Assembly: GCA_017881055.1 (NCBI GenBank)
Contig: JADGRF010000016.1
Location: 1,873 to 65,872 of the forward strand
Length of the DNA stretch: 64,000 nt
From: Sandaracinaceae bacterium
GTDB lineage: Bacteria > Myxococcota_A > Polyangia > Polyangiales > JAFGIB01
Direction: 5' to 3'
Positions 1 to 20,055 of this stretch are shown in pieces. Position 1 is the first letter of the stretch; the number at the start of each line of letters is the position of its first letter. A program made the position numbers and the translations under genes. The notes under the pieces were generated by a model that was given only the letters and a program-made list of their open reading frames with translations, searched no databases and had not been told where the DNA came from.

Positions 1-1645
1 TGTCCCAGCCGATCGAGCGCAGCGACACATGATTCGCAGGATAGGCATCGCTGGCCCAGTGGTACACGGTTCGACCCTGAGCACCCTGCACTTCGTGCAC
101 CACGCGATGGTCGCGCAAGAAACCCAGCGTATCTGCCACGGTTTCCGGAGGCACGTCGCCGAACGCTTCGCCGGCTTCGAACGGCAGCTCGAACGCCGCG
201 CACTTCACGTGCTGCACCATGATCTCGACGTTGTCGGGGTCGATGCGAGCATGCTCGATGGACGCACTGAGCAGCGTGTCGGGGCTCGCGGCGAGATACT
301 GATCGAGCGGTGCGCTCGAGGCGACCAAGAGCGCCAGGCTCTCGGCGCCGCGTCGACCACCGCGACCGAAGCGCTGCCAGAGCGCGGCGATGGAGCCCGG
401 GTAGCCCGCGCACACCACGGCGTCGAGGGAGCCGATGTCGATGCCCAGCTCGAGCGCGTTGGTGGCCACGACGCACGTGATCTCGCCCGCACGCAGCGCA
501 CGCTCGATCTCGCGGCGCTCCTCCGGCAGATACCCGCCGCGATACGCGTGCACCATGCGCGGGTCCATCTTCTCGCGCACGAGCCGCTCGCGCAGGTACT
601 TGAGCATGACCTCGACGTTGTTGCGCGACTGCCCAAACACGAGCGTGCTCACGCCGCTGCGAACGAGATCCGCCGTGAGGCGCACCGCCGTCTTCACGTA
701 GCTGGCGCGGATGCCGAGCTCGGCGTTCACGACCGGCGGGTTGTAGACCATCACGCGACGCGGCCCGCGCGGCGCTCCATTCTGCTCCACCAGCGTCACC
801 TCGCGACCGAGCATGCGCGAGGCGTGCTCGCGCGGATTGCCGATCGTGGCCGAGGCAAAGATGAACTTGGGATCGGCACCGTGGAAGCGCGCTACGCGCA
901 CGAGGCGTCGCAGCACGTTCGCGAGATGCGAGCCAAACACGCCGCGATACGTATGCAGCTCGTCGAGCACCACGTAGCGCAGGTTCGCAAACAGCCGCGC
1001 CCAGGCGGCGTGATGCGGGAGAATCCCGGTGTGCAGCATGTCGGGGTTCGTGAGCACGACCGCGCTCTTGTCACGTGCAGCGCGGCGCGCGTCACCCGGT
1101 GTGTCTCCGTCGTAGGTGATGGCACCGTGCGGCAGGCCTGCTTCACCGAGCAGCGCACGCAGCGCGACCTCTTGGTCACGCGACAGGGCCTTGGTTGGGA
1201 AGAGATACAACGCGCGAGAGTGCCCCGGAGAGCCGGAGGCTGCTCCGGAGGTATGTGACTCATGCTCGCGACTCAGCGCGTCGAGCACGGGTAAGTTGTA
1301 ACAAAGGCTCTTGCCCGACGCGGTCGGCGTGGAGATCACGACATCGTGCCCGGCACGCGCGAGCGAGAACGCTTCACCTTGATGGCTGTACAAGCGCTCG
1401 ACACCGCGGCGCACCAATGCCTCGCGAATGTTCGGCGCTAGCGCATGCGACAGCTCACTCCACTCGGCGTAGCGCGCGGGCTCGGCCGGCAAGCGCTCGG
1501 CGAGCACCACGTTACGCGCAAGCCCCTGGTCGCCCTGCCACTCCTCGATTACTCCGGAGAGCACACCCGAGAGACCGAGCGCGCTTCGCCAGGGCCGCAC
1601 GCGCTCACCGGTAAATGCGCCAAATTCATCGGAGATTTGAGCCAC
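1..1645 (-). CDS. DEAD/DEAH-box helicase, MrfA(YprA)/Hrq1-like; 3' end runs off the window start
   Basis: Absent from the ORF track because it has no stop in the window. Hand translation of the minus strand gives ERLYSHQGEAFSLARAGHDVVISTPTASGKSLCYNLPVL (motif I), YVVLDELHTYRG (DExH), FASATIGNP, VATNALELGIDIG and QRFGRGGRRG (motif VI). Start taken as GTG at 1645, uncertain. Track ORF 29..1258 (+) is its antisense shadow. Confidence 0.85.
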   Translation of the reverse strand, partial: MAQISDEFGAFTGERVRPWRSALGLSGVLSGVIEEWQGDQGLARNVVLAERLPAEPARYAEWSELSHALAPNIREALVRRGVERLYSHQGEAFSLARAGHDVVISTPTASGKSLCYNLPVLDALSREHESHTSGAASGSPGHSRALYLFPTKALSRDQEVALRALLGEAGLPHGAITYDGDTPGDARRAARDKSAVVLTNPDMLHTGILPHHAAWARLFANLRYVVLDELHTYRGVFGSHLANVLRRLVRVARFHGADPKFIFASATIGNPREHASRMLGREVTLVEQNGAPRGPRRVMVYNPPVVNAELGIRASYVKTAVRLTADLVRSGVSTLVFGQSRNNVEVMLKYLRERLVREKMDPRMVHAYRGGYLPEERREIERALRAGEITCVVATNALELGIDIGSLDAVVCAGYPGSIAALWQRFGRGGRRGAESLALLVASSAPLDQYLAASPDTLLSASIEHARIDPDNVEIMVQHVKCAAFELPFEAGEAFGDVPPETVADTLGFLRDHRVVHEVQGAQGRTVYHWASDAYPANHVSLRSIGWD

Positions 1646-1652
1646 GAAGCCA

Positions 1653-1668
1653 CTGTACGTATGTACAG
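1653..1668. promoter_or_regulatory. Perfect palindrome CTGTACGTATGTACAG (CTGT-N8-ACAG), LexA/SOS-box-like operator candidate
   Basis: 6-bp perfect inverted arms with a 4-bp centre. Lies in the AT-richer 1646-1760 gap between the divergent helicase and MarR genes, 8 bp upstream of the putative helicase GTG. Confidence 0.45.
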
Positions 1669-1760
1669 AAGAAAGGCAAGAGCGGCACTTTGGTTGCCAT
1701 TTGAAATCTTTTTCATTGCGCAAATAGTTAACCATGGTAAACCACTTCCCAAGGGTAGCG

Positions 1761-2282
1761 ATGGTCAAGAAGGCGCGTATCGAGACCGTGCACACCGCGA
1801 TCGAGCGGCTCACGCGCCTGTGCGAGCTCTTCCAGGAGCGCCGCGAGCAGCTCGCCAGTCGCGTCGGGCTCACCGAAGCGCAGTGGGAAGTGCTCGAAGA
1901 GATCTCGACCGAGCGCTTCATGCCGTCGATGTTCGCGCAGCGCGAGGAGCAGAGCCGCGCCGCCGTGTCGAAAGTCATTCGCCTGCTGCTCGACCGGGGC
2001 CTGGTACGCGTCGCGATCTCCAGCACGGATGGCCGGCAGCGCGACTACGCGCTCACCGCCGACGGCAAAGCCACCCTCGCCAAGCTCCGTACCGAACGCG
2101 AGAAGGCGATCGCCGCGATCTGGGTCGAGCTCGACCAGGAATCGCTCACGCAGTTCAGTGACTTTTCGGCGCAGCTGATCGAGCGCATCGAGCAGTACGC
2201 GCGCAAGAACGTGAACCACGAGCCAGCAAGCGGCCACTCAAGCGGCCACTCAAGCGGCCACTCAAGCGGCACTAAGGAGTGA
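1761..2282 (+). CDS. MarR-family winged-helix transcriptional regulator
   Basis: ORF 1734..2282. Contains [13 protein letters not shown]...[40 protein letters not shown], a wHTH pattern. Start moved to ATG 1761 (MVKKARIE). C-terminal [14 protein letters not shown] comes from a 12-bp tandem repeat. Confidence 0.75.
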
Positions 2283-3729: not shown

Positions 3730-4344
3730 ATGCAAGACTTCAAGAGAACCCTCATCACCGGCAAAGCCATCTCGGTCGATGGCAACGACATCGACACCGA
3801 TCGCATCATCCCCGCGCGCTTTCTGCGCTGCGTGACGTTCGACGACCTGGGCTCGCACTCGTTCGAGGACGACCGCAAACAGCTGCGCGAAGCCGGCAAG
3901 ACCCACCCGTTCGACGACGCCTCGCGCCAAAAGGCCAAGGTGCTGCTCGTCGATCGCAACTTCGGCTGTGGTTCGTCGCGCGAGCACGCGCCGCAAGCGC
4001 TGATGCGCTGGAACGCGGGCATCACGGCGGTGGTGGGTGAGTCGTTCGCCGAGATCTTCTTCGGCAACTGCGTCGCGCTCGGCATGCCGTGTGTCACGGC
4101 CAGCCGCGACGACGTGCAAGCGCTCAAACGCGCGATCGCGGCCGACCCGAACACCGAGCTGACCGTGGACTTGGTGCACGGCGAAGCCAGCGCCGGCAAT
4201 GTGCGTGTGAAGGTCAGCATGCCGGAAGGCGCGCGCAAGCAGCTGACGACCGGTCGCTGGGACTCGTCAGCCGAGCTGCTCGAGGGCAAGGACGCGGTCG
4301 CCAGCACGGCCAAGGGCCTGCCGTACTTCGCGCACTGGCACTGA
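3730..4344 (+). CDS. leuD: 3-isopropylmalate dehydratase small subunit
   Basis: ORF 3730..4344. Contains DIDTDRIIPARFL and NFGCGSSREHAPQAL, directly downstream of leuC. Confidence 0.93.
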   Translation: MQDFKRTLITGKAISVDGNDIDTDRIIPARFLRCVTFDDLGSHSFEDDRKQLREAGKTHPFDDASRQKAKVLLVDRNFGCGSSREHAPQALMRWNAGITAVVGESFAEIFFGNCVALGMPCVTASRDDVQALKRAIAADPNTELTVDLVHGEASAGNVRVKVSMPEGARKQLTTGRWDSSAELLEGKDAVASTAKGLPYFAHWH

Positions 4345-4415
4345 CCTCAAGTACGCAGCGCGCCCGCCCTGACGAGAACGTCGCGGCGGGCGTGCAGCAG
4401 CAGCCCACACACGAA

Positions 4416-4443
4416 ACGACCGGCCACATTCGCAGCCGGTCGT
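4416..4443 (-). terminator. Hairpin terminator candidate downstream of the VOC gene
   Basis: Perfect 9-bp stem ACGACCGGC/GCCGGTCGT with a 10-nt loop. On the minus strand it is followed by TTCGTGTGT. Lies between convergent leuD and the VOC gene. Confidence 0.4.
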
Positions 4444-4471
4444 CGTCTCACGCCAACAGTTCCAGCTGACC

Positions 4472-5053
4472 CTACTCCGGGCTGCCGTTCTGCCCGTGCT
4501 TGGCCTCTTCGGCGATCATGCGCTTCTTCATCTCGGCCGGTGAGACATCTTCGAAGTGCGTCGCTAAGCCCCATAGGTTTCCAAACGGGTCGCTCACGCG
4601 CGCGAAGCGATCGCCCCAGAACATGTCCTGCGCCGGCATCAGCACGCTGCAGCCTGCGTTCACGGCCTTGGCCAGAGTCTTGTCGACGTCGGGCACATAC
4701 AGAAAGATGCTCGAGACGCGCGCCGGCTCCATCACGGAGTCGGTCAACATCACGACCGAGTCACCGATCTGAATCTCGGCGTGCATGAGCTTTCCGCCGG
4801 GCCCCGGCATCGTGTAGCGCAGCTTGGCGTCGAACACTTCTTGGCAGAACGCGATGGTCGCCGTCGCGTCGGCCTGACACATCGAAGGCGTCGCGGTGTG
4901 GTAGCCGGCGGGGACCGCGCTTACCTTCTTCGCCACGGCCTTCTTCGGAGCTTTCTTCGCCGGCTTCGTGACGGTCTTCGTGGCCGACTTCTTAGCGGGC
5001 GTCTTCGCCGCCGTCTTGGCAGCCTTCTTCGCGGTCTTCTTTTTCGCAGCCAT
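4472..5053 (-). CDS. VOC (glyoxalase/bleomycin-resistance, PhnB-like) protein with N-terminal histone-H1-like Lys/Ala-rich tail
   Basis: ORF 4472..5131 trimmed to ATG 5053 (GGAGGG upstream). N-terminus is MAAKKKTAKKAAKTAAKTPAKKSATKTVTKPAKKAPKKAVAKK. VOC core includes KLMHAEIQIGDSVVMLTD and MFWGDRFARVSDPFGNLWGLAT. Confidence 0.8.
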   Translation of the reverse strand: MAAKKKTAKKAAKTAAKTPAKKSATKTVTKPAKKAPKKAVAKKVSAVPAGYHTATPSMCQADATATIAFCQEVFDAKLRYTMPGPGGKLMHAEIQIGDSVVMLTDSVMEPARVSSIFLYVPDVDKTLAKAVNAGCSVLMPAQDMFWGDRFARVSDPFGNLWGLATHFEDVSPAEMKKRMIAEEAKHGQNGSPE

Positions 5054-5155
5054 CGCAATCCTCCCTAACGATTGGGCGACGATGGTACGCACACGAGAGC
5101 GCCGCAGCCAACGGGGTACGAGCGCGCGCATCCTGCTAACGGTCCGTGTGCGCGA

Positions 5156-6622
5156 CTACGGCGGCAGCGTTTCGATTCTTGGAAACGTGAGGTGCTTGCC
5201 GGCTGGGACGTAGAACAGAAACGCTTTGAATTTTTGGTTCGAGGCCGCGTACACCGGCTGCCACGGCGGGGCCATCCAGAGGTAGTTCGCATCGAGCACG
5301 AGCCAGCGCACGGCGGGATCGCCCGATACGCGTGACGTGTCGGTGACGAGCCCGCCCATGTCGTACACGCGCATGCCCGTGTAGTACGCGAGCGTGCCGA
5401 CCTCGATCGATGCGAACGCATCGCCGGGTGCCGCGTGCGCCTTCAGAAATCCGGACAGGTGCAGGTAGACATCGTGGCGCGCGCCGGTCCAGTAGTCATC
5501 GCGATACGTGGCTGCCAGGAACGAGGTGCGTACACACGCGGCCAGCACCAACGCCGCCAGCGCCGAAGCCATGACCGAGCGTCCACCCCGCGTCGGCAAT
5601 TGCTGCGCGAGCTGGGCCACGCCACCGACCGCGAAGATCGCCGCGGCCAGCTGCAACGGATACAGGTGCCAATCATGGCCGATGAACGGTCGCAGAAACA
5701 GATACGCCACCGCATGCAGAACCGCGTACAGCACGTACAGCGCGAGAGTCTTATCGCGTCGCGCCAAGGCTGTGGCGCCGGCTACGATCACCACCCACGC
5801 CAGCACCAACGCCGGAACGCCGGTCGCGTACGGCACCGCCGTCTCACCCACCAGGGACAGAATGTGCCCGAGGTAGTCCGGCACGCTCGCGCGGTGGAAC
5901 TTGGTGATCGCGCTCTGCGGCAACGGACTGCCGTAGTAGACGGTCGCGAAGATCAACCACGGCAGGAACAGCGCGAAGAAGACTGCAATCGGCGTGAGCG
6001 CGCGACGCCGCAAACGAAACAGACAGACCGCACCGAGCAGCGCAGCCAAGAGCAACGCATCCGGGCGCATCACGCTTGCGAGGCCAGACAGGGCGGCAGC
6101 CAGCGTGAAGCGCTCGCGAGCCACGGCGACGAACGCCCAGAGCGTGAGCGCCGCCACGAGGTTCGTCTCGAACGGCACCCACATGAACGAACGAGCGGCT
6201 CCAAGCAGCAGCGCGAACGAAACGACGATCGAGAGCCGACGACCCAGCTGCGGCGACAGCAGATAGTGAGCCGCGACGGCCTGCGCGGTCCATCCGAGAC
6301 AGCCCAGCACGCTCATCCACGACGGCGTGTGTTCCTGTCCGAACACGAGGTAGACGAGCGCGGACAGCAGCATGTGGCCGGGCGCGGTCGAGCCGAGGAT
6401 GCGCTCGCCGGGATTGAACACGAAGCCGTGACCGAGCACGAGGTTCTGCCCGTACCGGTAGGTGATGAACGGGTCGTCCTGGCGAACCGGGAAGAAGGCG
6501 ATCGCCTGCCCAATGAACGCCAGCAGCGTGACCGCCCGGAGTAACTGGGGGCGGACCTGCTCCGGGCTGAGGGAAGCGGGAACGCGAGCCGGAGCGGGTT
6601 GCCCGGCGTCGGGTTCGGTCAC
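5156..6622 (-). CDS. Multi-pass membrane protein, GT-C-fold glycosyltransferase-like (ArnT/PMT/arabinofuranosyltransferase-like)
   Basis: ORF 5156..6781 trimmed to in-frame GTG 6622, which overlaps the upstream TGA (GTGA at 6619-6622). First-loop motif RQDDPFITYRYGQNLVLGHGFVFNPGERILGST, then many hydrophobic helices. Family assigned from memory of the motif. Confidence 0.65.
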   Translation of the reverse strand: MTEPDAGQPAPARVPASLSPEQVRPQLLRAVTLLAFIGQAIAFFPVRQDDPFITYRYGQNLVLGHGFVFNPGERILGSTAPGHMLLSALVYLVFGQEHTPSWMSVLGCLGWTAQAVAAHYLLSPQLGRRLSIVVSFALLLGAARSFMWVPFETNLVAALTLWAFVAVARERFTLAAALSGLASVMRPDALLLAALLGAVCLFRLRRRALTPIAVFFALFLPWLIFATVYYGSPLPQSAITKFHRASVPDYLGHILSLVGETAVPYATGVPALVLAWVVIVAGATALARRDKTLALYVLYAVLHAVAYLFLRPFIGHDWHLYPLQLAAAIFAVGGVAQLAQQLPTRGGRSVMASALAALVLAACVRTSFLAATYRDDYWTGARHDVYLHLSGFLKAHAAPGDAFASIEVGTLAYYTGMRVYDMGGLVTDTSRVSGDPAVRWLVLDANYLWMAPPWQPVYAASNQKFKAFLFYVPAGKHLTFPRIETLPP

Positions 6623-8661
6623 AGACGTCCTTCGATCGCGCGCAGTCTGCGCTTCTCGCGATACCGGCGAATGCACGGCGCCATGATCTCGCCGATCAAT
6701 GTACGGTACGAGATCCCGACCGCGTCCGCGATTAGGCACATGTCGGAAAAGCCAGGCGACAGGCCGGGCAGCGGATTGCACTCGATGAAGTTCACCCGTC
6801 CCTGCGCATCGATACGCAAATCGACGCGCGCGTAGTCGCGGCAGCCGAGCGCCACGAACGAGCGCTTCGCCACGCGCTCGATCTCGCGCAAGAGCGGATC
6901 GTCGACCTTGGCTGGCACTTCATAACGGATGCCGCGGCCCCGGAACTTGCACTCGAAGTCGTAGATCGGGTGCTTGCGATCGGGGTCGGTGAAGATCACT
7001 TCCATCGGCGGCAGCGCCTTGGGCTTGGTCTCGCCGATCAGCGCGACCGTGAACTCACGACCGGGCAGGTACGTTTCGACCAGCACGTCCTGACGATACT
7101 TCTGGATCAGCTCGCGCGCGAAGTCGCGCAGCTCGGCTTCGGACTCGGCGACCGAGCGCCCGACGATGCCCTTGCTGCTGCCCTCGGCAACGGGCTTCAC
7201 CATCAGCGGGAAGTCGAGGCCCTTCGCCAAGCGCTCCTTGCCTGTGCGCATGACCATCGACGCCGGTGTAGGACACTCGGCCTGCGCGACGATCTGCTTC
7301 GCCAAGCTCTTGTCGAGCGCGAGCGACATGGCGGCCGGGTCCGAGCCTGTATAAGGAATGCCGAGCAGCTCGAGCAGCGCCGGAACCTGCGCTTCACGGT
7401 TGCGACCGCCCATGCCCTCCGCGATGTTGAACACCACGTCGGCCGCGGCGGCCGGCAACAACGTCGACAGCTCGGGTGTCGCTTCGAGCTCTACGACCGT
7501 GTGACCGTAGCTCTCGACCGCTTCGCGGATCGCCGAGATCGTCTGCGGCGTGTCGTACTCGGCGTCGTGATCACGATCTGGCGTGAGCTCCGCGGTGCGC
7601 CGAACGTTGTATGTCAGCCCAACGCGCAATCTCTGCGCACTGCGGCGTGCAGGCATTGCGCTCTGGGACAGCCCATAGCGCTCCGAGGCCGACCTCAAGA
7701 TCGCATCAAGCATGGCTTCTTGCGTCGGCAGGCCCGCGAGCGCGCTCGATGCGTAGATCGCCGCGCCCTTCTCCAAGCTCGGCAGCGCGTTCACTTCGAG
7801 GAAGTAGACCTCACCGTCGTCGCCGAGTCGGAAGTCCACGCGACCCATGTCGCGGATGCCGAGCGCGCGGATCACCTTCTGGGTGAGCTCGATGCAGCGC
7901 GCGCGCTGGGTGGTAGAAAGTCCGGCAGGCACCTTCACGTTCACCGCCTGCGAGCCGATGTTCTTGAGCTCGAAATCGTAGAGTTGGTAGCGCCGTCCGG
8001 CGACCGCAGCCGAGTCGTATTCGTAGCCCGCGGGCTCGAGCACACCCAAGGTCAGCGGCGACGCCTTCTCGATGAACGGCACCGTGAGATCGCGCCCCAC
8101 GATGAACTCTTCGATCAGCACACCGGCGGGGAAGCGCGCGATCAGATCGAGCACGCGCGCAGTCAGTTGCTCGTGCGTCTCCACGACCGAGTCCACCGTG
8201 ATGCCGACTGACGAGCCTTCGAAATTTGGCTTTACGATCAAGGGGAAGCGCAGATGGTTGGCCGCCGTCAGCTGCGTGACGTCTTCGACGTAGCAAAACT
8301 TCGGCGTGGTCACGTTGTGCGACGCGACGACCATCTTGCTCAGGCGCTTGTCGAGCGTGAGCGCGCAGACGTACGCGTCCGATCCGGTGAACGGCAAAGA
8401 CAGCCGATCGAACAGCGCCGGGTAGAACGCTTCGCGGAACCGACCGTGGCTACCCTCGGCGGTGTTGAACACCAGATCGGGTGCCAGCGCCTCGAGCCGA
8501 GCCACCACGCGCGACGCCGGACCCGACACCTCGATCGGCTCGACCTGATGGCCGAGCTTACGCAACGCTGCCGAGATCCCGGCGACGGTCTCTGGCGTGT
8601 CGAACTCGGCCTCTTCCTCGGCGGTGCTGAGCTGAAGGTTGTGGGTGAAAGCAATGCGCAT
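6619..8661 (-). CDS. Fused tandem ATP-grasp ligase (two D-Ala-D-Ala-ligase-like modules)
   Basis: 680 aa in two homologous halves, starting MRIAFTHNLQL... and LRVGLTYNVRR.... Each half has an N-terminal Ddl-like domain, KP(N/V)xEGSSxGI, (I/V)EE/ETY..GRE and a C-terminal R(V/Y)D(F/L)R...EVN/ECNxLPGL. Confidence 0.85.
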   Translation of the reverse strand: MRIAFTHNLQLSTAEEEAEFDTPETVAGISAALRKLGHQVEPIEVSGPASRVVARLEALAPDLVFNTAEGSHGRFREAFYPALFDRLSLPFTGSDAYVCALTLDKRLSKMVVASHNVTTPKFCYVEDVTQLTAANHLRFPLIVKPNFEGSSVGITVDSVVETHEQLTARVLDLIARFPAGVLIEEFIVGRDLTVPFIEKASPLTLGVLEPAGYEYDSAAVAGRRYQLYDFELKNIGSQAVNVKVPAGLSTTQRARCIELTQKVIRALGIRDMGRVDFRLGDDGEVYFLEVNALPSLEKGAAIYASSALAGLPTQEAMLDAILRSASERYGLSQSAMPARRSAQRLRVGLTYNVRRTAELTPDRDHDAEYDTPQTISAIREAVESYGHTVVELEATPELSTLLPAAAADVVFNIAEGMGGRNREAQVPALLELLGIPYTGSDPAAMSLALDKSLAKQIVAQAECPTPASMVMRTGKERLAKGLDFPLMVKPVAEGSSKGIVGRSVAESEAELRDFARELIQKYRQDVLVETYLPGREFTVALIGETKPKALPPMEVIFTDPDRKHPIYDFECKFRGRGIRYEVPAKVDDPLLREIERVAKRSFVALGCRDYARVDLRIDAQGRVNFIECNPLPGLSPGFSDMCLIADAVGISYRTLIGEIMAPCIRRYREKRRLRAIEGRL

Positions 8662-8866
8662 ACGACGGACTCCTGGAAAGCACGCGCGCGTTGTGCAAGG
8701 TGCAGGCCAAGCTCAGCGCTCCGTCGCCACACGCGTCACACAACACCTCGTGATCAACTTTTTGGCCTCGATCATGCAAGGGGGGCAAGCTGTTAACGAG
8801 ACGTGTCGTCGTTCGGGCGCTGTTCAGCGCAATCATTACGGCGCGCGACCAACAGAGGAACAGCGC

Positions 8867-10372
8867 ATGGACGTCGAGCTTGGTCACCCGATGCCTTTCA
8901 TCGAGGAAGAAGAAACGGAGCCTCCTTCAGTAAGCGCTCCGCGAGTCACGGACACTGGACACGCCACTGCCACTGACACCTTCACGAACCCGATCGCGAA
9001 CCTCTTTGACGGGCATCGTCAACTCCTCGAAGGCGACTTCTGGCGCTACATCCCCGCGTACCGCGGCGTCGATCAAGCGACCTTCCTCGATCATCACTGG
9101 CAGAGCCAACACGCCGTGACGCGCGTGGACAAGCTCGCCACCGCGCTCGGCGATCTGCTGCCCAACGCGTTCTTCCGCGACGTGGAAGCCGGCATGGCGC
9201 GCGCACCGATGAGCCTGCGCATCTCGCCGTACATCGTGTCGCTCATCGACTGGCGCGACCCGTACAGCGACCCGCTTCGCAAACAGTTCCTGCCGCTCGC
9301 CTCCGAGCAGCTGGCCGACCACCCGATGGTGGGGTTCGACTCGCTGCACGAGCGCAGCGACTCGCCCGTGCCGGGCCTGGTGCATCGCTATCCCGACAAG
9401 GCGCTGTTCCTCGCGCTCGATCTCTGTCCGGTGTACTGCCGATTCTGCACCCGCAGCTATTCGGTCGGCGTCGACACCGAAGGCGTGTCCAAGTACCACC
9501 TGCGCGCGAAGCCCGAGCGCTGGGAAGTCGCGTTCGAGTACATCCGCGAACACGAGCAGCTCGAAGACATCGTGATCAGCGGTGGCGACGTGCACAATTT
9601 GCGCGCGGACCAGATCGCGGACATCGGCAACACGCTGCTCGACATCCCGCACGTGCGCCGCATGCGCTTCGCGACCAAGGCGATCGCCGTCGCACCCATG
9701 AAGTTCTTGAGTGACGACGAGTGGGTCAACTCGCTCGCGAGCGTCGCGCAACGCGGCCGCAAGCTCGGCAAGGAAGTCGTCGTACACACCCACGTGTCGC
9801 ACCCGCGCGAGATCACGTGGATCACCCAGGCCGCGACGCGCCGCTTGTACGGCGAAGGCGTCACGATCCGCAACCAGTGCGTGCTGCTGCGCGGCGTCAA
9901 CGACGACCCGACCATCTTGCGCACGCTGGTCAAGCGCCTCTCGTACGTGAACGTTCAGCCGTACTACGTGTACCAGCACGATCTCGTGCCCGGCGTCGAA
10001 GACCTGCGTACCAGCCTTGGCACCACGCTCGCGATCGAGAAGCAGGTGCGCGGCTCGACGGCAGGCTTCAACACGCCGACGTTCGTGGTCGACGCCCCAG
10101 GCGGCGGCGGCAAGCGCGACGTGCATTCGTTCGAGCACTACAACCGCACCACCGGAGTGAGCGTGTATCGCTCACCGAACGTGGACGAGAGCGCCGTGTA
10201 CCTGTACTTCGACCCGATCGAGTTCCTGCCCGAGGAGGGCCGGCGCCGCTGGGCCGATCCCGACGAGCACGCCACGATGATCAGCGAAGCCGTACGCGCA
10301 GCAGGTCACGATCCCGCCAGTCTGCCCCGCGGATGGGGAGCCTCCCAACGGCGCCGCCTCCCCGTTATGTGA
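8867..10372 (+). CDS. kamA: KamA-family radical-SAM aminomutase (L-lysine 2,3-aminomutase-like)
   Basis: ORF 8639..10372 trimmed to ATG 8867 (AGAGGAA 6 nt upstream). Contains LCPVYCRFCTRSY (CxxxCxxC), ISGGD, YYVYQHDL and PTFVVDAPGGGGKR. Confidence 0.85.
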   Translation: MDVELGHPMPFIEEEETEPPSVSAPRVTDTGHATATDTFTNPIANLFDGHRQLLEGDFWRYIPAYRGVDQATFLDHHWQSQHAVTRVDKLATALGDLLPNAFFRDVEAGMARAPMSLRISPYIVSLIDWRDPYSDPLRKQFLPLASEQLADHPMVGFDSLHERSDSPVPGLVHRYPDKALFLALDLCPVYCRFCTRSYSVGVDTEGVSKYHLRAKPERWEVAFEYIREHEQLEDIVISGGDVHNLRADQIADIGNTLLDIPHVRRMRFATKAIAVAPMKFLSDDEWVNSLASVAQRGRKLGKEVVVHTHVSHPREITWITQAATRRLYGEGVTIRNQCVLLRGVNDDPTILRTLVKRLSYVNVQPYYVYQHDLVPGVEDLRTSLGTTLAIEKQVRGSTAGFNTPTFVVDAPGGGGKRDVHSFEHYNRTTGVSVYRSPNVDESAVYLYFDPIEFLPEEGRRRWADPDEHATMISEAVRAAGHDPASLPRGWGASQRRRLPVM

Positions 10373-10417
10373 TCGCGGATCGCGTGGCCCTTCACGAGAC
10401 GCGTTGTCACTGCGGCC

Positions 10418-10563
10418 AAAACAGTGGCGCATGGGTCGTGAGCCGCGAGCGAGGCGCCTTCGGTTCCGAGGAGCGCGCGGAGCGGACTTCCCGTCCGTGA
10501 GCACGCACCGCAGGAAGCGAAGGCGGATCGCGAAGTGGATCGCGGCCCAGGCGCCACTGTTTT
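10418..10563. repeat. Palindromic intergenic element, copy A (MITE/REP-like family)
   Basis: Terminal inverted repeats AAAACAGTGGCGC ... GCGCCACTGTTTT. Internal blocks are shared with copy C (56676..56855). The right arm overlaps the TAA stop of the 10562..12079 gene by 2 nt. Confidence 0.7.
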
Positions 10564-12079
10564 AGGGGGAGGTGCGTTCGCAGGTGAGTAGGGAGAGGTA
10601 GTTCTTCCAGGGGTCGCCGCCTTTGGACTTTAGGGCGGCGGCTAGTTCTTGGGTTTCGTAGGCTCGCTTTAGGCGCAGGGTGATCGCTTCTTCGGTTTGG
10701 CCGGCGGCGTAGCGGGCGTCGAGGTCGTCTACTTCTTCGGCAGCTGCGGCGTTGGCCTTGGCCTCGTCGCTGTCGTCCAGGACCTTCTTGATGGCGAGTG
10801 AGTCGCGCGCGAGCGTGGGCGCGAAGTCGGGGTGGTAGGCGTCGTCGAGCACGGGCCAGCGGCCGAGCAGCAAGGCCGACAACGCGCCGTGCTTTTCGTC
10901 GAGGTTGTCCTCGGCGATCGTGAGCTCGTGATCCAGCTGATCGAGCGTGCGCCCGAGCGCGGATAATCGCTCTTCGACGGCCGCTCGCGTGAGTAGCCCA
11001 AGGCGCGCGCCGAGCTGCGTCACGACGGCGGCGTCCTCGGGCAGCAATTTGGCGTCGATCTTGCCGGGTTTCTTCTGCACTTCGCGCAGGTAGCGCTCCG
11101 ACGTGGTGGTCGGCACGTCGATCGATTCGCCCGCGATGCGCGCACGCGTGTGCGCCTCGAACAGGCTCACCCGCCCGTCGCCATCGAAGTCGATGTCGCG
11201 CTTCGCAAGCGGATGGCCATCGCGATCTTCGCCACGCAGCGCGTGCAGCATGTGCATGCTGTAGCCCTCCTGCGCGCGCCGATCAGGGTTCGGATCGCAG
11301 CCGCTGGTCTCGCGGTCCCACGTTCCGGCAAACAGGCCACAGCGTGGCGAGGTCGTGATGCCGCGCGCCGGCTCCGCAGCTTCGAACGCGAGCTCGGCAA
11401 AGCCACCGGAGAAACAACTCGCGATCACCAAGCGCACCGGCCGCTTTGCCTTGCTCGACAGCGCATCGAGCTCGGGCACGGAGAGCTCGTCGCCGCCCCA
11501 GAGCACCACGTGGTTCTCGCGTGCGTGTCCGCCCTGCTCGCCATGAGATGCAATGTAAAGAAGCAGCGGGTCCTTGCCCTCGGCAAGCGCATGGAACAGC
11601 TCGTGGTGGACACTGCTCGAGCTCGCGGGCAGCGCGTTGAGCGAGGGCTTGCGATACCGACTGCCGCGGCCTTTGCGTGGCGTGAAGAAGTCACCGACGC
11701 GCACGAGCACGCTGGTCGCATCCAAGGTCGGGTCGAGCGTGCGCACGCTGTTGGCGTCCGAGCCACCGGCAAACAGCACCCTGCCCGGCCCCGGCAACAC
11801 GCTGACGACCAGCGCAATGTCCTGCTCGAGCGACACTTCCGTCGACTCGGGCGTGGCACCTCCGCCGATTGCGATGAAGCGCAGCGGTCCGCTTGCAGCT
11901 GCCGGCGGCATAGCAGGCGCGGCCACGGTCGGCGCAGCCGTGGCCGACGCGCTCGGCGCGGCTCGTTTCGCCCGCGCTGCTACGGGCGCGACCTCACGCC
12001 GGCGCGGCGCGCCTGCGCACAGCGCGATGAACAGCGCAAACGAAGCGCAGGCGATGGTAGTCCGCAGCATGTCGAGCAC
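10562..12079 (-). CDS. Secreted clan-CD cysteine peptidase-like protein (legumain C13/caspase fold) with EF-hand-like loop and coiled-coil tail
   Basis: Signal peptide MLDMLRTTIACASFALFIALCAGA. His-Gly / Ala-Cys dyad context LLLYIASHGEQGG ... VRLVIASCFSGGF. DIDFDGDGRVSLFEAH is a Ca-binding-type loop. Confidence 0.65.
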   Translation of the reverse strand: MLDMLRTTIACASFALFIALCAGAPRRREVAPVAARAKRAAPSASATAAPTVAAPAMPPAAASGPLRFIAIGGGATPESTEVSLEQDIALVVSVLPGPGRVLFAGGSDANSVRTLDPTLDATSVLVRVGDFFTPRKGRGSRYRKPSLNALPASSSSVHHELFHALAEGKDPLLLYIASHGEQGGHARENHVVLWGGDELSVPELDALSSKAKRPVRLVIASCFSGGFAELAFEAAEPARGITTSPRCGLFAGTWDRETSGCDPNPDRRAQEGYSMHMLHALRGEDRDGHPLAKRDIDFDGDGRVSLFEAHTRARIAGESIDVPTTTSERYLREVQKKPGKIDAKLLPEDAAVVTQLGARLGLLTRAAVEERLSALGRTLDQLDHELTIAEDNLDEKHGALSALLLGRWPVLDDAYHPDFAPTLARDSLAIKKVLDDSDEAKANAAAAEEVDDLDARYAAGQTEEAITLRLKRAYETQELAAALKSKGGDPWKNYLSLLTCERTSP

Positions 12080-12106: not shown

Positions 12107-13654
12107 TCACGGCGCTGCGTCAGAACAGCAACGGAAGCCCAAGCTCGGCAACAGCGTGTTCGCGCTCGCCTGCGAGAACGTGGTCTGGCACGTGAGCGCC
12201 CCCGCCGACGAGATGTACGAGCCGCCGCGGGCCACGTAGATCGGAATGTTGGCCGGGGCGCCGGTCGTTCCGTCGGCGTCGCTGGTCCACTCGCGCACGT
12301 TGCCGGAGAGATCGTAGGCGCTCTCCTGGCTGATGCACGCAGCCAGCGATCCCGTCGGCAGCACGGCGCTGTCGAACGCACCCCCGGGAACGGCATCGTG
12401 GTCGGCACCGTTGCAGCTGTCACCGACGTAGCTCGCGCCGTAGGGATACGTGGTCGCGCTCGCGCCTTCACACGCGCCCTGCCATTCGGCGCCGGTGCAC
12501 AGGCGCCGGCCCGATGCCGCGCAAGCCGCGCTCGCCACGGAGTACGACACGAACGTCCAAGGCAACGCGTTGGCCTTCGAGCAGGAGCGCGCGGTCACTC
12601 GCCCTGGCACCGTCGCCAGCGCATCCGGGCGCGAGGCCTCGTAGCGGTACATCCAGTAGTCGAGCCCGCCGCGGACGACGTGCACCATGTCGTCAATCAC
12701 TCGCTTCGGGTCCTGCGGGTCCGGGTTGTCCACGGTGCCGTCGCAGTTGTCGTCGACGCCGTTGCAGGTCTCGACCGCGGCGGGCCCCGAGCCGGGCACG
12801 GGATCGGGCAGCACCGTTAGGTCGCAATAGGTACGCGTGGGATCGACCGGATGGCAGCGGATCATGCCGACGTCGCGGCACGCGCCGAGCGAACCGTCGT
12901 CGCACTCTTTGCCGACCTCGGGCCACGGCTCGTCGACCAAGCCGTCGCAGTCGTTGTCGATACCGTCGCAGCGCGTCTCGTCGGGCACGATCCCGTTCGG
13001 CACGATCGGATCGAACTGCACGCCGGCCGGATAGTCGCAGTACCAGGTGGTGCGTCCGGCCCGCGTATCGCAAACCACGCCGACGTTCTCGCAGGGCGTC
13101 CCGGCGAGATGACGGCAGATGCCGTTGCCCGGCCGGATCAGGTCTTCATCGGTTTGACCGTCGCAGTCGTCGTCGACGCCGTTGCAGTCTTCGCTGCGCG
13201 CAGGAAACACCGGACAGCGGTACTCACAGCCAGCCTTGTGGTCCAGGTCGGCAAAGCCGAGCTGACAGCCCAGGTCCTGGCACTTGCCGCGCACGCACAC
13301 CGCGTCGACGTTCTCGACCGCGCAGGAATGGTTGCAGCTGCCACAGTGCTGCGGGTTGTTCTCGAGCGCGAAATCCTCATCGACCTTGCCATCGCAGTCG
13401 TCGTCGATCTGGTTGCAGATCTCGTCTTGGCCGCTCGAGATGCAGGTGTCGATGCGGCCACTGTCGGGCGTGGGCGTGGCCATGTTGCCCGCGTCGGGGG
13501 ACACAGCGCCGTCGATCACAGCGCCGTCGATCACGCCGCCGGCATCCTCGACACAGTCGAGGCAAAATGCTTCGTTGCGGCAACCGGCTGCGCCGAGGCA
13601 CACCAGCGCACACAGCGACGCGCACACGAGCGCGCGCAGAGCAGCGTCCCTCAC
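12107..13654 (-). CDS. Lipoprotein with 4 MopE-type metal-binding repeats and a C-terminal FGE-sulfatase (SUMF1-like) domain
   Basis: ORF 12107..14248 trimmed to GTG 13654 (GTGA overlap with the upstream stop at 13651-13654). Lipobox in VRDAALRALVCASLCALVCLGAAGC. Repeats CNQIDDDCDGKVDEDF, CNGVDDDCDGQTDEDL, CDGIDNDCDGLVDEPW and CNGVDDNCDGTVDNPD. FGE core includes YWMYRYEASR, LSGNVREWT, RGGSY and LGFRCC. Confidence 0.8.
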   Translation of the reverse strand: MRDAALRALVCASLCALVCLGAAGCRNEAFCLDCVEDAGGVIDGAVIDGAVSPDAGNMATPTPDSGRIDTCISSGQDEICNQIDDDCDGKVDEDFALENNPQHCGSCNHSCAVENVDAVCVRGKCQDLGCQLGFADLDHKAGCEYRCPVFPARSEDCNGVDDDCDGQTDEDLIRPGNGICRHLAGTPCENVGVVCDTRAGRTTWYCDYPAGVQFDPIVPNGIVPDETRCDGIDNDCDGLVDEPWPEVGKECDDGSLGACRDVGMIRCHPVDPTRTYCDLTVLPDPVPGSGPAAVETCNGVDDNCDGTVDNPDPQDPKRVIDDMVHVVRGGLDYWMYRYEASRPDALATVPGRVTARSCSKANALPWTFVSYSVASAACAASGRRLCTGAEWQGACEGASATTYPYGASYVGDSCNGADHDAVPGGAFDSAVLPTGSLAACISQESAYDLSGNVREWTSDADGTTGAPANIPIYVARGGSYISSAGALTCQTTFSQASANTLLPSLGFRCCSDAAP

Positions 13655-16600
13655 GTTCGCCTCCGCGAGCGGCGCACGAACACCCGCGCAAACAACAACG
13701 TCATACCGAAAGGCGCGAGCGAGCGCGGCGCAGGGCGCCCCGGCGCGCTCACGCTGCAGCTCGACAGCCCCGAGCCGCTGGTCGCTACGTACGTTGCAAC
13801 GTGCGGCTTTTCGTTGGGGTTCTTGGGTGGCGCGCAGACCGGCTCCCCATGACCACCGACCGTGCACAGCTCGCTGACCGGACAATGCGTGACTGCGCAC
13901 GGGTCCGCGACGCAGCCGACAGCGGGTAGACACACGTCGCCCGTCACGCATGAAAGACTCGCGCAGGGATCCGCAACGCACTTGCCGCCCCGACACACGT
14001 CCCCCTGGTGCGCCGGACAGGTCACGCTGGCGCACGGGTCCACCTCGCAGCCGCCGCTCGAGCCGCAGCTCTGGCCGCTCGGGCACTTCGCGTCGTCGCA
14101 GTGCGAGAGACACTTGCCGTCCCAGCACAGATCGTTGGTGGCGCACTTCACGCGCGCGCACGGATCCGGTTCGCAGGCGTGGTCGTAGCAGACCTGGCCC
14201 GTCGCACAGCCCGACACCGCGCAGTCCACGCACTGGCCGTTCACGCACGTCGACCCCGAATCACATTTCACGCCCTGACACGCGTCCACACAGTGGTCGA
14301 CCGCGCAGCGTTCGCTCGTCTTGCAGATCGAGCACGCGCTGGGCAAGCAGAAGCCACCGCTGAAGCCAGCCTTCATCACGCAGCTCATACCGACCGGGCA
14401 TGGGAACTCTTGCTTGGGGTCGCAGCCGCGGCGACACGCACCTGACACGCACGCGTTACCCTTCGGACAGACCGCGTCGTCGTCCACCTGCCCGTTGCAA
14501 TTGTCGTCGCGACCGTTGCACAGCTCATCGGTCTTCGAGACGCCCCCGATGCACATGAGCGAGCCCGACACGCAGCGCAGCACGCCGGGCGTGCACTCGC
14601 CCCGCGTCGAGCCGCAAGCGCGGTTCAACGACGGATCCGCTTCGTCGATCTTGCCGTCGCAGTCGTCGTCCTTGCCGTTGCACAGCTCTTCGCCGCTCTG
14701 CACGCAGCTCGTGTCCGTGCAGTCGAGGCTCTCGTCGATGGCGCCGTCGCAGTCGTCGTCCAAGTTGTTGCAGATCTCGACGCCGGGGCTCTGCGGAGGC
14801 GTGCTGATGTTGCACTGCAGCGAGTCACCGGCCGTGTTGCACGCGAGCGCGCCGAGACCTCGGCAAATGCCTCGGCCACCGTCGTTGCAGCTCTGCCCGA
14901 GGCCCGTGAAGTCTTCGTCGATCTTGGAGTCGCAGTCGTCGTCGAGCCCGTTGCAGGTCTCGAAGCGCACGGAGCGCGAGACGATGCTGGTCAGGGCCGG
15001 CATCAACTCCTGTGGCTGCGACACGAACGCGGCGCCGCGCGTGCCGCCGGAGCCCGCCATCGCGATGCCGTTCAGCGCTTGCTGCTCGCTTGGCAGCACG
15101 CTGACCGCGATCACGTTCACGTCGATGCCGAGCACGTCGTGCAGGTGCCGGGCCTGGGACACGGGATCGCCCGCGCAGCTCTCCGCACCGTCCGTCACCA
15201 GGATCACGCTGTAGTCACGACAGCCGGCAACCGGGTCGGTCGCGCGCACCGGGCGGATGTAGTCTTCGACGGCTTGCAACGAGCCTGCGAGCGGCGTCGG
15301 CCCCGCACCGCGCACTTCGCAGTCGCCACCCGTGCGATGGGCGCAGAAGTCGCCTGGCGTGGTGTCGCCGTTCCACGCGGTCTCCTTGCCATCGAGCCAC
15401 TTCACCATCGCTTTGAGTGGTGTGCCGAAGCCAGACAGAATGTCCGCGCCGCGGCGCGCAGGGCCACACGAGCCCGCGTAGTTGATGCACTCGGTGCGAA
15501 CCGGCGGGTTGGGCCCGGCGTTCGGATTGACGAGCACCGAAATCGTATCGCCCGGATTCGGCCCGTAGCTCACGTCGCAGGCGTGCGCGCCGGAGTTGTC
15601 GCGTGGGTCATCGTAGCTGGCGACCAGGCCCTGGCACTCGAACCACGCGGCGGCCTGGCACGAGCGGTTGGGGCCCTCGTCCTGGTGGTAACGCGCGAGC
15701 CCGAAGTCGAGCTCGGGATACGCCGTCATCACTTGCGCCAAGGTCTCGCGCGCGAGGAACAAGCGCGAGTCGTTGGGTTGACCGTCGCCATCGGTGTCGA
15801 TGCCCGGGTGCTCCACGCTTCCGTCACCGAAGGTCGGGTACCCGGTCAAAGTCAGCAGCATCGAAGCGGACGTATCGAGGATCACCATGACGCGCGGCTT
15901 GCCACCGTCAGCTGCAGCCTTGCAGCTTGGATCGCTGGTCACCGTCGGCGCGCACGCGGCTGGCTCGCCCGCGCTGCAGCTCGGGATGCTCTGCGCACAC
16001 ACGCCGAGCCCGCACTGAGAGTTGCTGAAGCCTTCGTCTATGACCCCATCGAAGTCGTTGTCGAAGCCGTCGCACACCTCGCCGATGTACGCACCGTCCA
16101 GCTGCAGCTCGCCCGCGCCGCCGCCCGCTTCGCCCTGGCAAAGCGGACACGTACCGCCGAGCGCACCGCTGACATCGAAGCGCGCGCTCGGATCGAAGCT
16201 CGCACGCACCGAGAGCACGCTGATCACGCCGCCACCGCCGCCGCCACCGCAGTCGTCGCAGCCGGCCACCGTGGTCTGCGCGCCCGCCGGGCAATCCAGG
16301 TAGTCGGGCTGACCGACCGCCGCCGCACGCGCGTCGCCGCCGAGACCGCCAGCCGCGGTGATCAGCGCGGTCGGGCCGAGCTCCACCTTCTCGCCGACCA
16401 CCAGCACCGAGCCGCCCGCACCGCCGCCGCCCGAGTCGTTGTCCACGCCGCAGCCACGCGCGCCGCGTGCGTCGACGGTTCCGTCGATATGCACGGTGCC
16501 GGGTGCGAGGCCGCACGGCGACGCGCTACTGCCGCGGGCGCTGAGGCCCACGAGCGCGACTCGTCCACCGCCGGCTCCACCCACGATCGGCGAGGTGAAG

Positions 16601-19930: not shown

Positions 19931-20055
19931 CGTCGGTCAAGGAAGCTGGCAGCCGACGTGTGAGTCAGCATCTGCGCAACACCCGTACAATGGACTTGTG
20001 GAGTTGCTCGCTTCCCGGCAGAATCCCGAGTCAGGGACGCGTAAAAGGCAGCGGC

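What the first reader, a model, noticed from the sequence alone, without database searches (positions are those of the whole stretch)
5156..10372. KamA-type aminomutase facing a fused double ATP-grasp ligase coupled to a GT-C membrane enzyme: candidate beta-lysine conjugation system
The divergent arrangement has three parts.
- On the plus strand is a KamA-family radical-SAM aminomutase (CPVYCRFCTRSY). It retains both Asp positions (YQHDL and VVDAPGGGGK) that I recall binding the lysine epsilon-amine in Clostridium KamA, so beta-lysine is the likely product rather than beta-glutamate.
- On the minus strand is a 680-aa protein made of two complete Ddl-like ATP-grasp modules.
- Its TGA overlaps the GTG of a multi-pass GT-C-type membrane protein with an RQDDPFITYRYGQNLVLGHGFVFNPGE loop motif.

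This is none of the contexts I know for KamA. There is no aaRS-like EpmA (EF-P lysylation), no GNAT (ablAB osmolyte pathway), and no kamDE/kdd/kce (lysine fermentation). My inference is that beta-lysine is made and then ligated by ATP-grasp chemistry into a di- or oligo-peptide or onto an envelope acceptor, with the GT-C enzyme acting on the same envelope target.
Basis: partly seen in the sequence, partly recalled or inferred. Interest (0 to 1): 0.7.

Follow-up and report, generated by a model that had tools for sequence, protein, structure and literature searches.

The report
Lysine aminomutase beside tandem amino-acid ligase
A beta-lysine-making enzyme sits next to an uncharacterised double peptide-bond-forming ligase. 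The ligase's usual partner in hundreds of predatory-bacteria genomes is a beta/D-aminopeptidase, so this looks like a cytoplasmic pathway for an unusual small peptide, and the neighbouring membrane sugar-transferase is a local add-on rather than part of it.

Summary
All three genes are real and correctly typed:
- A KamA-family radical-SAM aminomutase, 8867-10372 (+). Both lysine-binding Asp, the PLP Lys and the carboxylate Arg are conserved.
- A 680-aa fusion of two intact Ddl-like ATP-grasp modules, 6619-8661 (-).
- A GT-C-fold membrane protein, 5156-6622 (-), whose GTG overlaps the ligase TGA.

The three-part "envelope conjugation" reading fails on conservation. The GT-C gene is next to the ligase in none of 84 related loci, including relatives with 87-90% identical ligase. 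GT-C homologues elsewhere have unrelated neighbours.

The ligase family occurs in more than 587 species (Myxococcota, Bdellovibrionota). Its conserved operon partner is a Peptidase_S58 (DmpA/BapA) aminopeptidase, found in about 60 of 84 loci but absent from this window.

KamA adjacency is confined to one Polyangia subclade. There it persists in divergent, convergent and co-directional (kamA-ligase-S58) arrangements. In one lineage a different, classical lysine 2,3-aminomutase overlaps the ligase start instead.

In contrast, 0 of 80 other KamA-clade loci carry the ligase.

Best reading: beta-lysine feeds an ATP-grasp ligase that makes a short cytoplasmic peptide, which S58 hydrolyses. This is inferred, not shown. 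I found no literature on such a system.

The parts
8867..10372 (+). KamA-family radical-SAM/PLP aminomutase, 501 aa; probable lysine 2,3-aminomutase of an uncharacterised subfamily
   Evidence: TIGR00238 scores 226.5 bits (cut-off 199.2), but no equivalog cut-off is met. 2A5H aligns at E 1e-64 with R134, D293, D330 and K337 conserved; Zn-site Cys268 is Pro and there are no C-terminal Cys. The four residues are invariant in 22 clade members.
8662..8866 (.). 205-bp divergent intergenic region between the ligase and KamA starts
   Evidence: Sequence read. No Rfam match at E<=1. No sigma-70-like promoter match.
7663..8661 (-). Tandem ligase, module 1 (residues 1-333): Ddl-like ATP-grasp
   Evidence: Pfam/NCBIfam stretch 60-321. 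PDB Ddl/VanA alignments. Invariant K144, EGSS148-151, E184/E185, R274, D276, E289, N291. The omega-loop Lys is kept but the Tyr is Asn.
6619..7638 (-). Tandem ligase, module 2 (residues 342-680 plus stop): Ddl-like ATP-grasp
   Evidence: Pfam stretch 475-660. Pseudomonas DdlA 8evx matches at E 6e-33. Invariant K489, EGSS493-496, E529, R612, D614, E627, N629. The omega-loop Tyr is Phe. The AlphaFold linker 334-341 is disordered.
5156..6622 (-). GT-C-fold membrane glycosyltransferase-like protein, 488 aa. It is co-directional with the ligase and overlaps its stop by 4 nt, but is a lineage-specific neighbour and not a conserved part of the module
   Evidence: AlphaFold pLDDT 93.7. Foldseek finds ArnT 5f15, AftB 9dlf and OST subunits. 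D49/D50 invariant. Absent from 84 ligase loci. Its homologues sit in unrelated contexts.

Best explanation
KamA and the tandem ligase belong to a cytoplasmic small-peptide module. Its full form in related Polyangia is kamA + tandem Ddl-like ligase + S58 aminopeptidase.

Proposed steps:
1. KamA converts L-lysine to beta-lysine. This is inferred from conserved substrate residues.
2. The fused ligase has two diverged but catalytically intact Ddl-type active sites on one chain (Ddl itself works as a homodimer). It uses ATP to form acyl-phosphates and make one or two amide bonds, giving a di- or tripeptide or short oligomer that contains beta-lysine. This is inferred from gene context only.
3. An S58 (DmpA/BapA-type) N-terminal nucleophile aminopeptidase releases an N-terminal beta- or D-amino acid and turns the product over. 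This parallels cyanophycin synthetase and cyanophycinase. The S58 gene is usually the next gene after the ligase, but it is missing from this locus.

The GT-C gene was inserted downstream of the ligase only in this lineage. It is probably co-transcribed but functionally separate.
For: Ligase-S58 pairing:
- The pair is immediately adjacent and co-directional, often with overlapping stop and start, in about 60 of 84 loci across Myxococcota and Bdellovibrionota.
- S58 is 64-73% identical across phyla.
- S58 is a genuine DmpA/BapA relative: Pfam E 1e-119, BapA 3N2W E 2e-77, DmpA 1B65 E 3e-72, and the Gly-Ser self-cleavage site is present.

KamA next to the ligase, in four layouts:
- Divergent: window, L001-3, L081, L091.
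- Between S58 and the ligase: L086.
- Convergent: L012.
- kamA->ligase->S58 operon: L090.

Independent recruitment: in L006 a classical LAM-type gene (TIGR03820 478 bits; only 37% identical to the window KamA) ends 7 nt inside the ligase gene, and S58 lies downstream.

Lysine chemistry:
- Lys-type residues are invariant in both KamA types.
- Relatives of the KamA clade sit in kdd-kamA bicistrons in 6 of 80 loci (Kdd equivalog 255 bits against a cut-off of 200). This ties the clade to beta-lysine chemistry.

Same ligase function across the family: ligases from KamA-linked and unlinked genomes differ at only 2 conservative group-specific positions out of 680.
Against: - Only 5 of 80 species-level ligase loci have KamA within 8 kb.
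- None of 80 metagenomic KamA-clade loci has the ligase or S58; 26 of these have at least 2.5 kb on both sides.
- All KamA-linked ligases fall in one part of the ligase tree. The window-type adjacency may therefore have arisen once and persisted.
- No S58 gene lies in this 64-kb window.
- No substrate was determined for any of the proteins.
- S58 enzymes also cleave N-terminal D-Ala, which would fit a D-Ala-type ligase product without beta-lysine.
- Genome-wide co-occurrence of KamA with the ligase could not be tested.
Confidence: 0.5

Rival explanations
1. The KamA adjacency is historical rather than functional. The ligase+S58 pair handles other amino acids, for example a D-Ala-X or other unusual dipeptide that is made and recycled. 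KamA independently supplies beta-lysine for catabolism or another use.
For: - Ligase-S58 is the only widely conserved pairing.
- The KamA clade is mostly stand-alone or paired with a kdd-like gene or a WYL regulator, with 0 of 80 loci near the ligase.
- KamA-linked ligases are monophyletic.
- DmpA-type enzymes are D-Ala aminopeptidases/amidases (established knowledge of the family).
- The ligase's nearest solved relatives are Ddl and VanA.
Against: - Adjacency survived at least three rearrangements while the ligases diverged to about 59% identity.
- In L006 a non-orthologous LAM-type gene is translationally coupled to the ligase.
- L090 is a tight kamA-ligase-S58 operon.
Confidence: 0.3
2. KamA, the tandem ligase and the GT-C enzyme form one system that attaches beta-lysine or a beta-lysyl peptide to an envelope glycoconjugate.
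For: - The 4-nt GTGA overlap and shared strand imply co-transcription in this genome. An identical contig exists in an independent assembly (L087).
- GT-C codon usage is native, with GC3 of 0.83.
Against: - GT-C is next to the ligase in 0 of 84 loci, including relatives with 87-90% identical ligase.
- GT-C homologues have unrelated neighbours.
- The ligase, KamA and S58 have no signal peptides or membrane segments.
- The ligase is functionally uniform across the family.
Confidence: 0.07
3. The 680-aa protein is simply a duplicated housekeeping D-Ala-D-Ala ligase for peptidoglycan.
For: - It exceeds the broad NCBIfam PRK01372 and TIGR01205 'D-alanine--D-alanine ligase' subfamily cut-offs (332 and 282 bits), but only by summing two modules.
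- Sources name it Ddl.
Against: - No Ddl equivalog cut-off is met.
- No Dala_Dala_lig_N domain is detected.
- The omega-loop Tyr216 equivalent is Asn in one half and Phe in the other.
- The gene is not in a mur/fts cluster.
- Its constant partner is an aminopeptidase, not cell-wall genes.
Confidence: 0.05

Closest known systems
AblA/AblB (lysine 2,3-aminomutase + beta-lysine acetyltransferase; N-epsilon-acetyl-beta-lysine osmolyte of methanogens)
   Same: A KamA-type enzyme makes beta-lysine, and a neighbouring gene product then N-acylates or ligates it in the cytoplasm.
   Different: The partner here is an ATP-grasp ligase, not a GNAT. The KamA scores 260 bits against a cut-off of 525 for the AblA equivalog. 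The product is unknown.
EpmB/EpmA (YjeK/PoxA) beta-lysylation of EF-P
   Same: A KamA-family aminomutase is coupled to an ATP-dependent ligase that forms a beta-lysyl amide.
   Different: EpmA is a class II LysRS paralogue and the acceptor is EF-P Lys34. No EpmA or efp gene is here, and the EpmB equivalog scores 159 bits against a cut-off of 369.
D-Ala-D-Ala / D-Ala-D-Lac ligases (DdlA/B, VanA)
   Same: The ATP-grasp fold and catalytic Lys/Glu/Arg/Asp/Asn set are shared. The best PDB matches are Pseudomonas DdlA/B, VanA and E. coli DdlB.
   Different: This is a tandem fusion whose halves are 37% identical to each other. The N-domain is divergent, with an AE(F/Y)DTP motif and NxAEGxxGRxRE in place of HGxxGEDG. 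The omega-loop Tyr is lost. It is paired with S58 rather than mur genes.
Cyanophycin synthetase / cyanophycinase (CphA/CphB)
   Same: One polypeptide with two ligase active sites is encoded next to a dedicated peptidase that degrades its product.
   Different: The families differ: CphA is an ATP-grasp plus Mur-ligase fusion and CphB is an S51 peptidase. No polymer has been shown here.
Beta-aminopeptidases BapA / DmpA (MEROPS S58/P1)
   Same: The ligase's conserved partner belongs to this family (E 2e-77 to BapA, 3e-72 to DmpA) and keeps the self-cleaving Gly-Ser site.
   Different: That partner is not in this window. The natural substrates of BapA and DmpA are unknown, and no ATP-grasp or KamA partner has been described for them in the searched literature.
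Lysine fermentation genes kamA-kamDE-kdd-kce-kal
   Same: Relatives of this KamA clade form kdd-kamA bicistrons in 6 of 80 metagenome loci.
   Different: No kdd, kamDE or kce gene lies in this window. Even the kdd-kamA loci show no kamDE nearby.
GT-C glycosyltransferases ArnT / AftB / PglB
   Same: The fold matches (Foldseek E 1.6e-8 to 5e-8, TM about 0.55) and there is an invariant DD motif in the first loop.
   Different: Sequence identity is only 14-21%. There is no Pfam hit and only weak NCBIfam LA_3751/2 similarity (E 7.5e-6). Donor and acceptor are unknown.

Membership tests
KamA family radical SAM proteins (TIGR00238) | Score above the curated subfamily cut-off | tested here: met
   226.5 bits against 199.2
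KamA family radical SAM proteins (TIGR00238) | CxxxCxxC [4Fe-4S] motif and PLP-binding Lys | tested here: met
   C187/C191/C194 and K416 (= K337 of 2A5H), invariant in 22 sequences
Lysine 2,3-aminomutase proper (TIGR03820 equivalog; C. subterminale LAM) | Equivalog HMM cut-off | tested here: not met
   260.2 bits against 525.4
Lysine 2,3-aminomutase proper (TIGR03820 equivalog; C. subterminale LAM) | Asp293 and Asp330 (epsilon-amine) and Arg134 (carboxylate) | tested here: met
   D372, D409 and R196 align to them and are invariant in the clade
Lysine 2,3-aminomutase proper (TIGR03820 equivalog; C. subterminale LAM) | Zn site (Cys268 plus C-terminal Cys375/377/380) | tested here: not met
   Pro stands at the Cys268 position, and there is no Cys in the C-terminal 80 residues
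Lysine 2,3-aminomutase proper (TIGR03820 equivalog; C. subterminale LAM) | Converts L-lysine to beta-lysine | not testable with these tools
   Needs an anaerobic enzyme assay
D-Ala-D-Ala ligase (EC 6.3.2.4) | ATP-grasp catalytic residues (K144, E180, R255, D257, E270, N272 equivalents) | tested here: met
   Present and invariant in both halves
D-Ala-D-Ala ligase (EC 6.3.2.4) | Dala_Dala_lig_N domain with the Glu15 region, and the HGxxGEDG motif | tested here: not met
   No PF01820 hit. PDB alignments start after the N-domain. The motif is NxAEGxxGRxRE instead.
D-Ala-D-Ala ligase (EC 6.3.2.4) | Omega-loop Lys215-Tyr216 | tested here: not met
   Lys is kept. Tyr is Asn in half 1 (ELKN) and Phe in half 2 (ECKF).
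D-Ala-D-Ala ligase (EC 6.3.2.4) | Equivalog-level HMM cut-offs | tested here: not met
   For example PRK14571 scores 245.8 against 404, and PRK01966.1-3 scores 196.6 against 310
GT-C glycosyltransferases | Multi-pass GT-C fold | tested here: met
   Model pLDDT 93.7. Foldseek probability 1.0 to ArnT, AftB, STT3, PglB and ALG9.
GT-C glycosyltransferases | Acidic motif in the first extracytoplasmic loop | tested here: met
   D49 and D50 are invariant in 39 homologues
GT-C glycosyltransferases | Polyprenyl-phosphate-sugar-dependent transfer | not testable with these tools
   Needs biochemistry
   GT-C is adjacent in 0 of 84 ligase loci, and in 0 of 2 GT-C homologue loci with the ligase or KamA
kamA + tandem ligase + S58 module (defined here) | KamA adjacent to the ligase | tested here: met
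   Divergent, 205 bp apart. The same pairing occurs in L001-3, L081, L091, L012, L086, L090 and L006.
kamA + tandem ligase + S58 module (defined here) | S58 aminopeptidase gene adjacent | tested here: not met
   No tblastn hit in the 64-kb window (best E 2.9)
ablAB / epmAB / lysine-fermentation contexts | GNAT, EpmA-like aaRS, or kamDE/kdd/kce next to kamA | tested here: not met
   None among the neighbours in 1-26 kb

The most novel reading that the evidence does not exclude
The tandem Ddl-like ligase and its S58 partner are a widespread (more than 587 species) system that synthesises and hydrolyses a natural beta-peptide. In it, beta-lysine from KamA is ligated by ATP-grasp chemistry, for example to a beta-lysyl di- or tripeptide or a short oligo-beta-lysine. 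This would give beta-aminopeptidases of the BapA/DmpA family their first physiological substrate. It would also define a non-ribosomal, non-NRPS route to beta-amino-acid peptides in predatory bacteria.
Probability: 0.3. Interest if true: 0.8.

Novelty: new variant of a known kind. Interest (0 to 1): 0.58.

Why it matters
- **Beta-aminopeptidases.** BapA and DmpA have been studied for decades as the only enzymes that cleave N-terminal beta-amino acids, yet their natural substrates are unknown (established knowledge of the family). A conserved operon pairs such an enzyme with an uncharacterised two-site ATP-grasp ligase, and in some lineages with a beta-lysine-forming aminomutase. That gives a directly testable hypothesis for a natural beta-peptide.
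- **Annotation.** The ligase family is conserved at 55-65% identity across Myxococcota and Bdellovibrionota and is routinely mis-annotated as D-Ala-D-Ala ligase.
- **Possible phenotype.** A Myxococcus xanthus KamA-family gene (MXAN_4699) was recently linked to evolved predatory swarming (bioRxiv 10.64898/2026.05.15.725110). Beta-lysine metabolism in these organisms may therefore have a phenotype to follow.

Tried and rejected
- **Exact look-ups.** Searches for the window's ligase and KamA found no contig. Only the GT-C protein was found, on a 3.6-kb Logan contig identical to the window.
- **RNA and signals.** An Rfam scan of 4000-11000 for a lysine riboswitch or other RNA gave no match at E<=1. 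The promoter and terminator scan gave nothing above shuffled expectation.
- **Literature.** Searches covered aminomutase / ATP-grasp / beta-lysine; beta-aminopeptidase / DmpA / ATP-grasp; and tandem or double ATP-grasp. None describes such a cluster.
- **Taxonomic placement of KamA.** I used the representative-library search plus cluster names to place the KamA clade in named Myxococcus or Bdellovibrio genomes. The names returned were only metagenomic, plus unexpected fungal homologues. Genome-level co-occurrence therefore remains untested.
- **Extra genes in L006.** The AlaDh/PNT-like, GCS2-like and C26 peptidase genes are unique to that locus and not part of a conserved set.
- **Horizontal acquisition of GT-C.** Rejected, because its GC3 (0.83) equals its neighbours'.
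- **Early gene assignment.** My initial call of + strand ORFs at 29-2161 was wrong. GC3 analysis and Pfam show a - strand DEAD/HRQ1-type helicase there.
Full report
**Observation**

The region holds three real genes.
- The + strand gene 8867-10372 (ATG preceded by AGAGGAA) encodes a 501-aa KamA-family protein.
  - It passes the KamA subfamily model (226.5 bits against a cut-off of 199.2).
  - It passes none of the function-specific equivalogs: lysine 260/525, glutamate 198/650, arginine 190/600, EpmB 159/369.
  - Aligned to the only solved relative, Clostridium LAM 2A5H (E 1e-64), it keeps the CxxxCxxC cluster motif, Arg134, Asp293, Asp330 and the PLP Lys337.
  - It lacks the Zn-site cysteines.
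  - The four substrate and cofactor residues are invariant in 22 clade members.
- The - strand gene 6619-8661 encodes 680 aa with two Dala_Dala_lig_C stretches.
  - The halves are 37% identical to each other and about 30% identical to Ddl/VanA structures.
  - Both halves keep the ATP-grasp catalytic set. These residues are invariant in 15 homologues spanning 58-78% identity.
  - AlphaFold gives two complete modules joined by a disordered linker at 334-341 (pLDDT 87, pTM 0.52).
- The ligase TGA overlaps the GTG of the 488-aa membrane protein at 5156-6622 as GTGA.
  - That protein has no Pfam hit, but its model (pLDDT 93.7) matches ArnT, AftB and the oligosaccharyltransferase catalytic subunits.
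  - The DD of the RQDDPFITYRY motif is invariant.

**Is the trio conserved?**

The tandem ligase family is large. A species-level genome scan found more than 587 species encoding it (Myxococcus, Corallococcus, Archangium, Anaeromyxobacter, Enhygromyxa, Polyangiales, Bdellovibrionota), at 54-65% identity outside the three closest relatives (87-90%).

I searched 80 of these loci plus extra contigs with the window's proteins.
- The GT-C protein was found next to the ligase in none.
- Close relatives already differ in the downstream position:
  - L081 and L003 (87% identical ligase) have a 279-aa hypothetical.
  - L002 (89%) has DUF3570 and cytochrome-like genes on the other strand, even though leuCD beyond them is syntenic with the window.
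- GT-C homologues at 52% and 46% identity sit among transporters and signalling genes.
- The GT-C gene has native codon usage. It is probably co-transcribed here, but it is a lineage-specific neighbour.

**The conserved partner**

I clustered all ORFs of the ligase loci.
- One family lies immediately downstream and co-directional in 56 of 82 loci, with a median gap of about 20 bp.
- tblastn finds it in about 60 loci at 64-73% identity, across phyla.
- It is Peptidase_S58 (E 1e-119).
- Its closest solved relatives are a Pyrococcus D-aminopeptidase (2DRH), the beta-peptidyl aminopeptidase BapA (E 2e-77) and DmpA (E 3e-72). The Gly-Ser self-processing site is intact.
- In Bdellovibrionota and other lineages, nothing else around the pair is conserved.
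- There is no S58 gene in the 64-kb window.

**KamA linkage**

KamA lies within 8 kb of the ligase in only 5 of 80 species loci. Further look-ups show a pattern.
- Divergent: window, L001-3, L081, L091.
- Convergent: L012.
- KamA wedged between S58 and the ligase: L086.
- Tight kamA->ligase->S58 operon: L090 (Polyangiaceae), with a 4-nt overlap between the ligase and S58 genes.
- In L006 the gene ahead of the ligase is a different, classical LAM-type KamA. It scores 478 bits to TIGR03820 and is only 37% identical to the window's KamA. Its stop lies 7 nt inside the ligase gene, and S58 follows two genes later.

All these ligases fall in one region of the ligase tree. The window-type adjacency may therefore have arisen once. 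It has nevertheless survived several rearrangements while the ligases diverged to about 59% identity. The L006 replacement by a non-orthologous lysine aminomutase is hard to explain without a functional need.

Against a general link:
- An unbiased metagenome sample of 80 KamA-clade loci (46-64% identity) contains no ligase and no S58. Of these, 26 have at least 2.5 kb on both sides.
- Instead, those loci show stand-alone genes, a WYL regulator upstream (10 loci), or a kdd-kamA bicistron (6 loci; Kdd equivalog 255 bits against a cut-off of 200).
- The kdd pairing independently ties the clade to beta-lysine chemistry.

Ligases from KamA-linked and unlinked genomes differ at only two conservative group-specific positions out of 680 (R/K354, F/W638). 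The enzyme therefore does the same thing everywhere. If beta-lysine is a substrate, unlinked genomes must supply it from elsewhere. M. xanthus does encode KamA-family genes (MXAN_4699/4698; bioRxiv 10.64898/2026.05.15.725110).

**Mechanism proposed**

Shown:
- Domain identities.
- Intact catalytic residues in both ligase modules.
- Lys-type residues in KamA.
- The operon structures.

Inferred:
- KamA makes beta-lysine.
- The tandem ligase acts as a covalent heterodimer of two Ddl-like sites and forms one or two amide bonds by acyl-phosphate chemistry, giving a short beta-lysine-containing peptide.
- S58 removes an N-terminal beta- (or D-) amino acid and turns the product over, as cyanophycinase does for cyanophycin.

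The ligase is not an ordinary Ddl:
- No equivalog cut-off is met.
- No Ddl N-domain is detected.
- The HGxxGEDG motif is replaced by NxAEGxxGRxRE.
- An AE(F/Y)DTP motif is present in both halves.
- The omega-loop Tyr is Asn in one half and Phe in the other.

None of the proteins has a signal peptide or membrane segment, which argues for a cytoplasmic product rather than an envelope target.

**Rivals**

1. The KamA adjacency is historical, and the ligase-S58 pair works on other (for example D-Ala-type) substrates. Confidence 0.3.
2. Confidence 0.07.
3. An ordinary duplicated Ddl. Confidence 0.05.

**Novelty**

Three full-text searches found no description of a tandem Ddl-like ligase, or of a KamA/ATP-grasp/S58 cluster. 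The parts belong to known families, but the combination and the fused ligase family are uncharacterised. I rate it a new variant of a known kind, with interest 0.58. The GT-C part of the original claim should be dropped.

Noticed in passing
window 4472-5131 (-): A VOC/glyoxalase-family protein (Pfam E 1e-14) carries a histone-H1-like Lys/Ala-rich N-terminal tail (AAKKKTAKKAAKTAAKTPAKKSATKTVTKPAKKAPKKAVAKK). It lies 25-100 bp downstream of the GT-C gene on the same strand, and the same GT-C-then-VOC pair is on the independent contig L087.
   Followed up: partly
L122, L125, L129, L132, L134, L143 (e.g. L143 6874-9323): A kdd-like gene (L-erythro-3,5-diaminohexanoate dehydrogenase equivalog, 255 bits) overlaps the start of a KamA-clade gene by 4 nt. 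No kamDE, kce or kal is nearby. The homologue may act directly on beta-lysine, or the rest of the pathway is elsewhere.
   Followed up: partly
P0353, P0357, P0502, P0503: Fungal (Ceratocystis, Plenodomus) proteins annotated as L-lysine 2,3-aminomutase are among the closest 50%-cluster representatives of this bacterial KamA clade (about 48% identity, full length). This is an unexpected eukaryotic distribution.
   Followed up: no
L006 1084-8638: An extended co-directional cluster: LAM-type kamA, tandem ligase, AlaDh/PNT-like protein, S58, GCS2-like carboxylate-amine ligase, Peptidase_C26 (gamma-glutamyl hydrolase type). The three extra genes were found in no other locus.
   Followed up: partly
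window 10562-12079 (-): A 505-aa protein with only a weak match to an EACC1-associated caspase-type domain (NCBIfam E 1e-4). It is conserved (68% identity) next to kamA in L001 but not in L081.
   Followed up: no
window 12107-17226 (-): Two large Cys-rich proteins with MopE-type metal-binding repeats, one of which ends in an FGE-sulfatase domain. The longest ORFs overlap by about 600 bp, so the start of the 12107-14248 gene is probably later than the first GTG. The pair is syntenic in L081 and L003.
   Followed up: no
window 19960-23948 (+): A 768-aa protein with seven or more calcium-binding EGF-type repeats is followed by a FadL/TodX-like outer-membrane protein whose start overlaps the first gene's stop.
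   Followed up: no
window 1-2026 (-): A DEAD/HRQ1-type helicase runs off the window start. The + strand ORFs listed at 29-1258 and 1445-2161 are spurious shadows of it (GC3 test).
   Followed up: yes
L045, L050, L062, L040: A sub-lineage of tandem ligases (MAGs labelled Desulfobacteraceae or Deltaproteobacteria) lacks the S58 partner. It has its own conserved flanking set of four small genes (clusters c65, c66, c68, c69), which I did not annotate.
   Followed up: no
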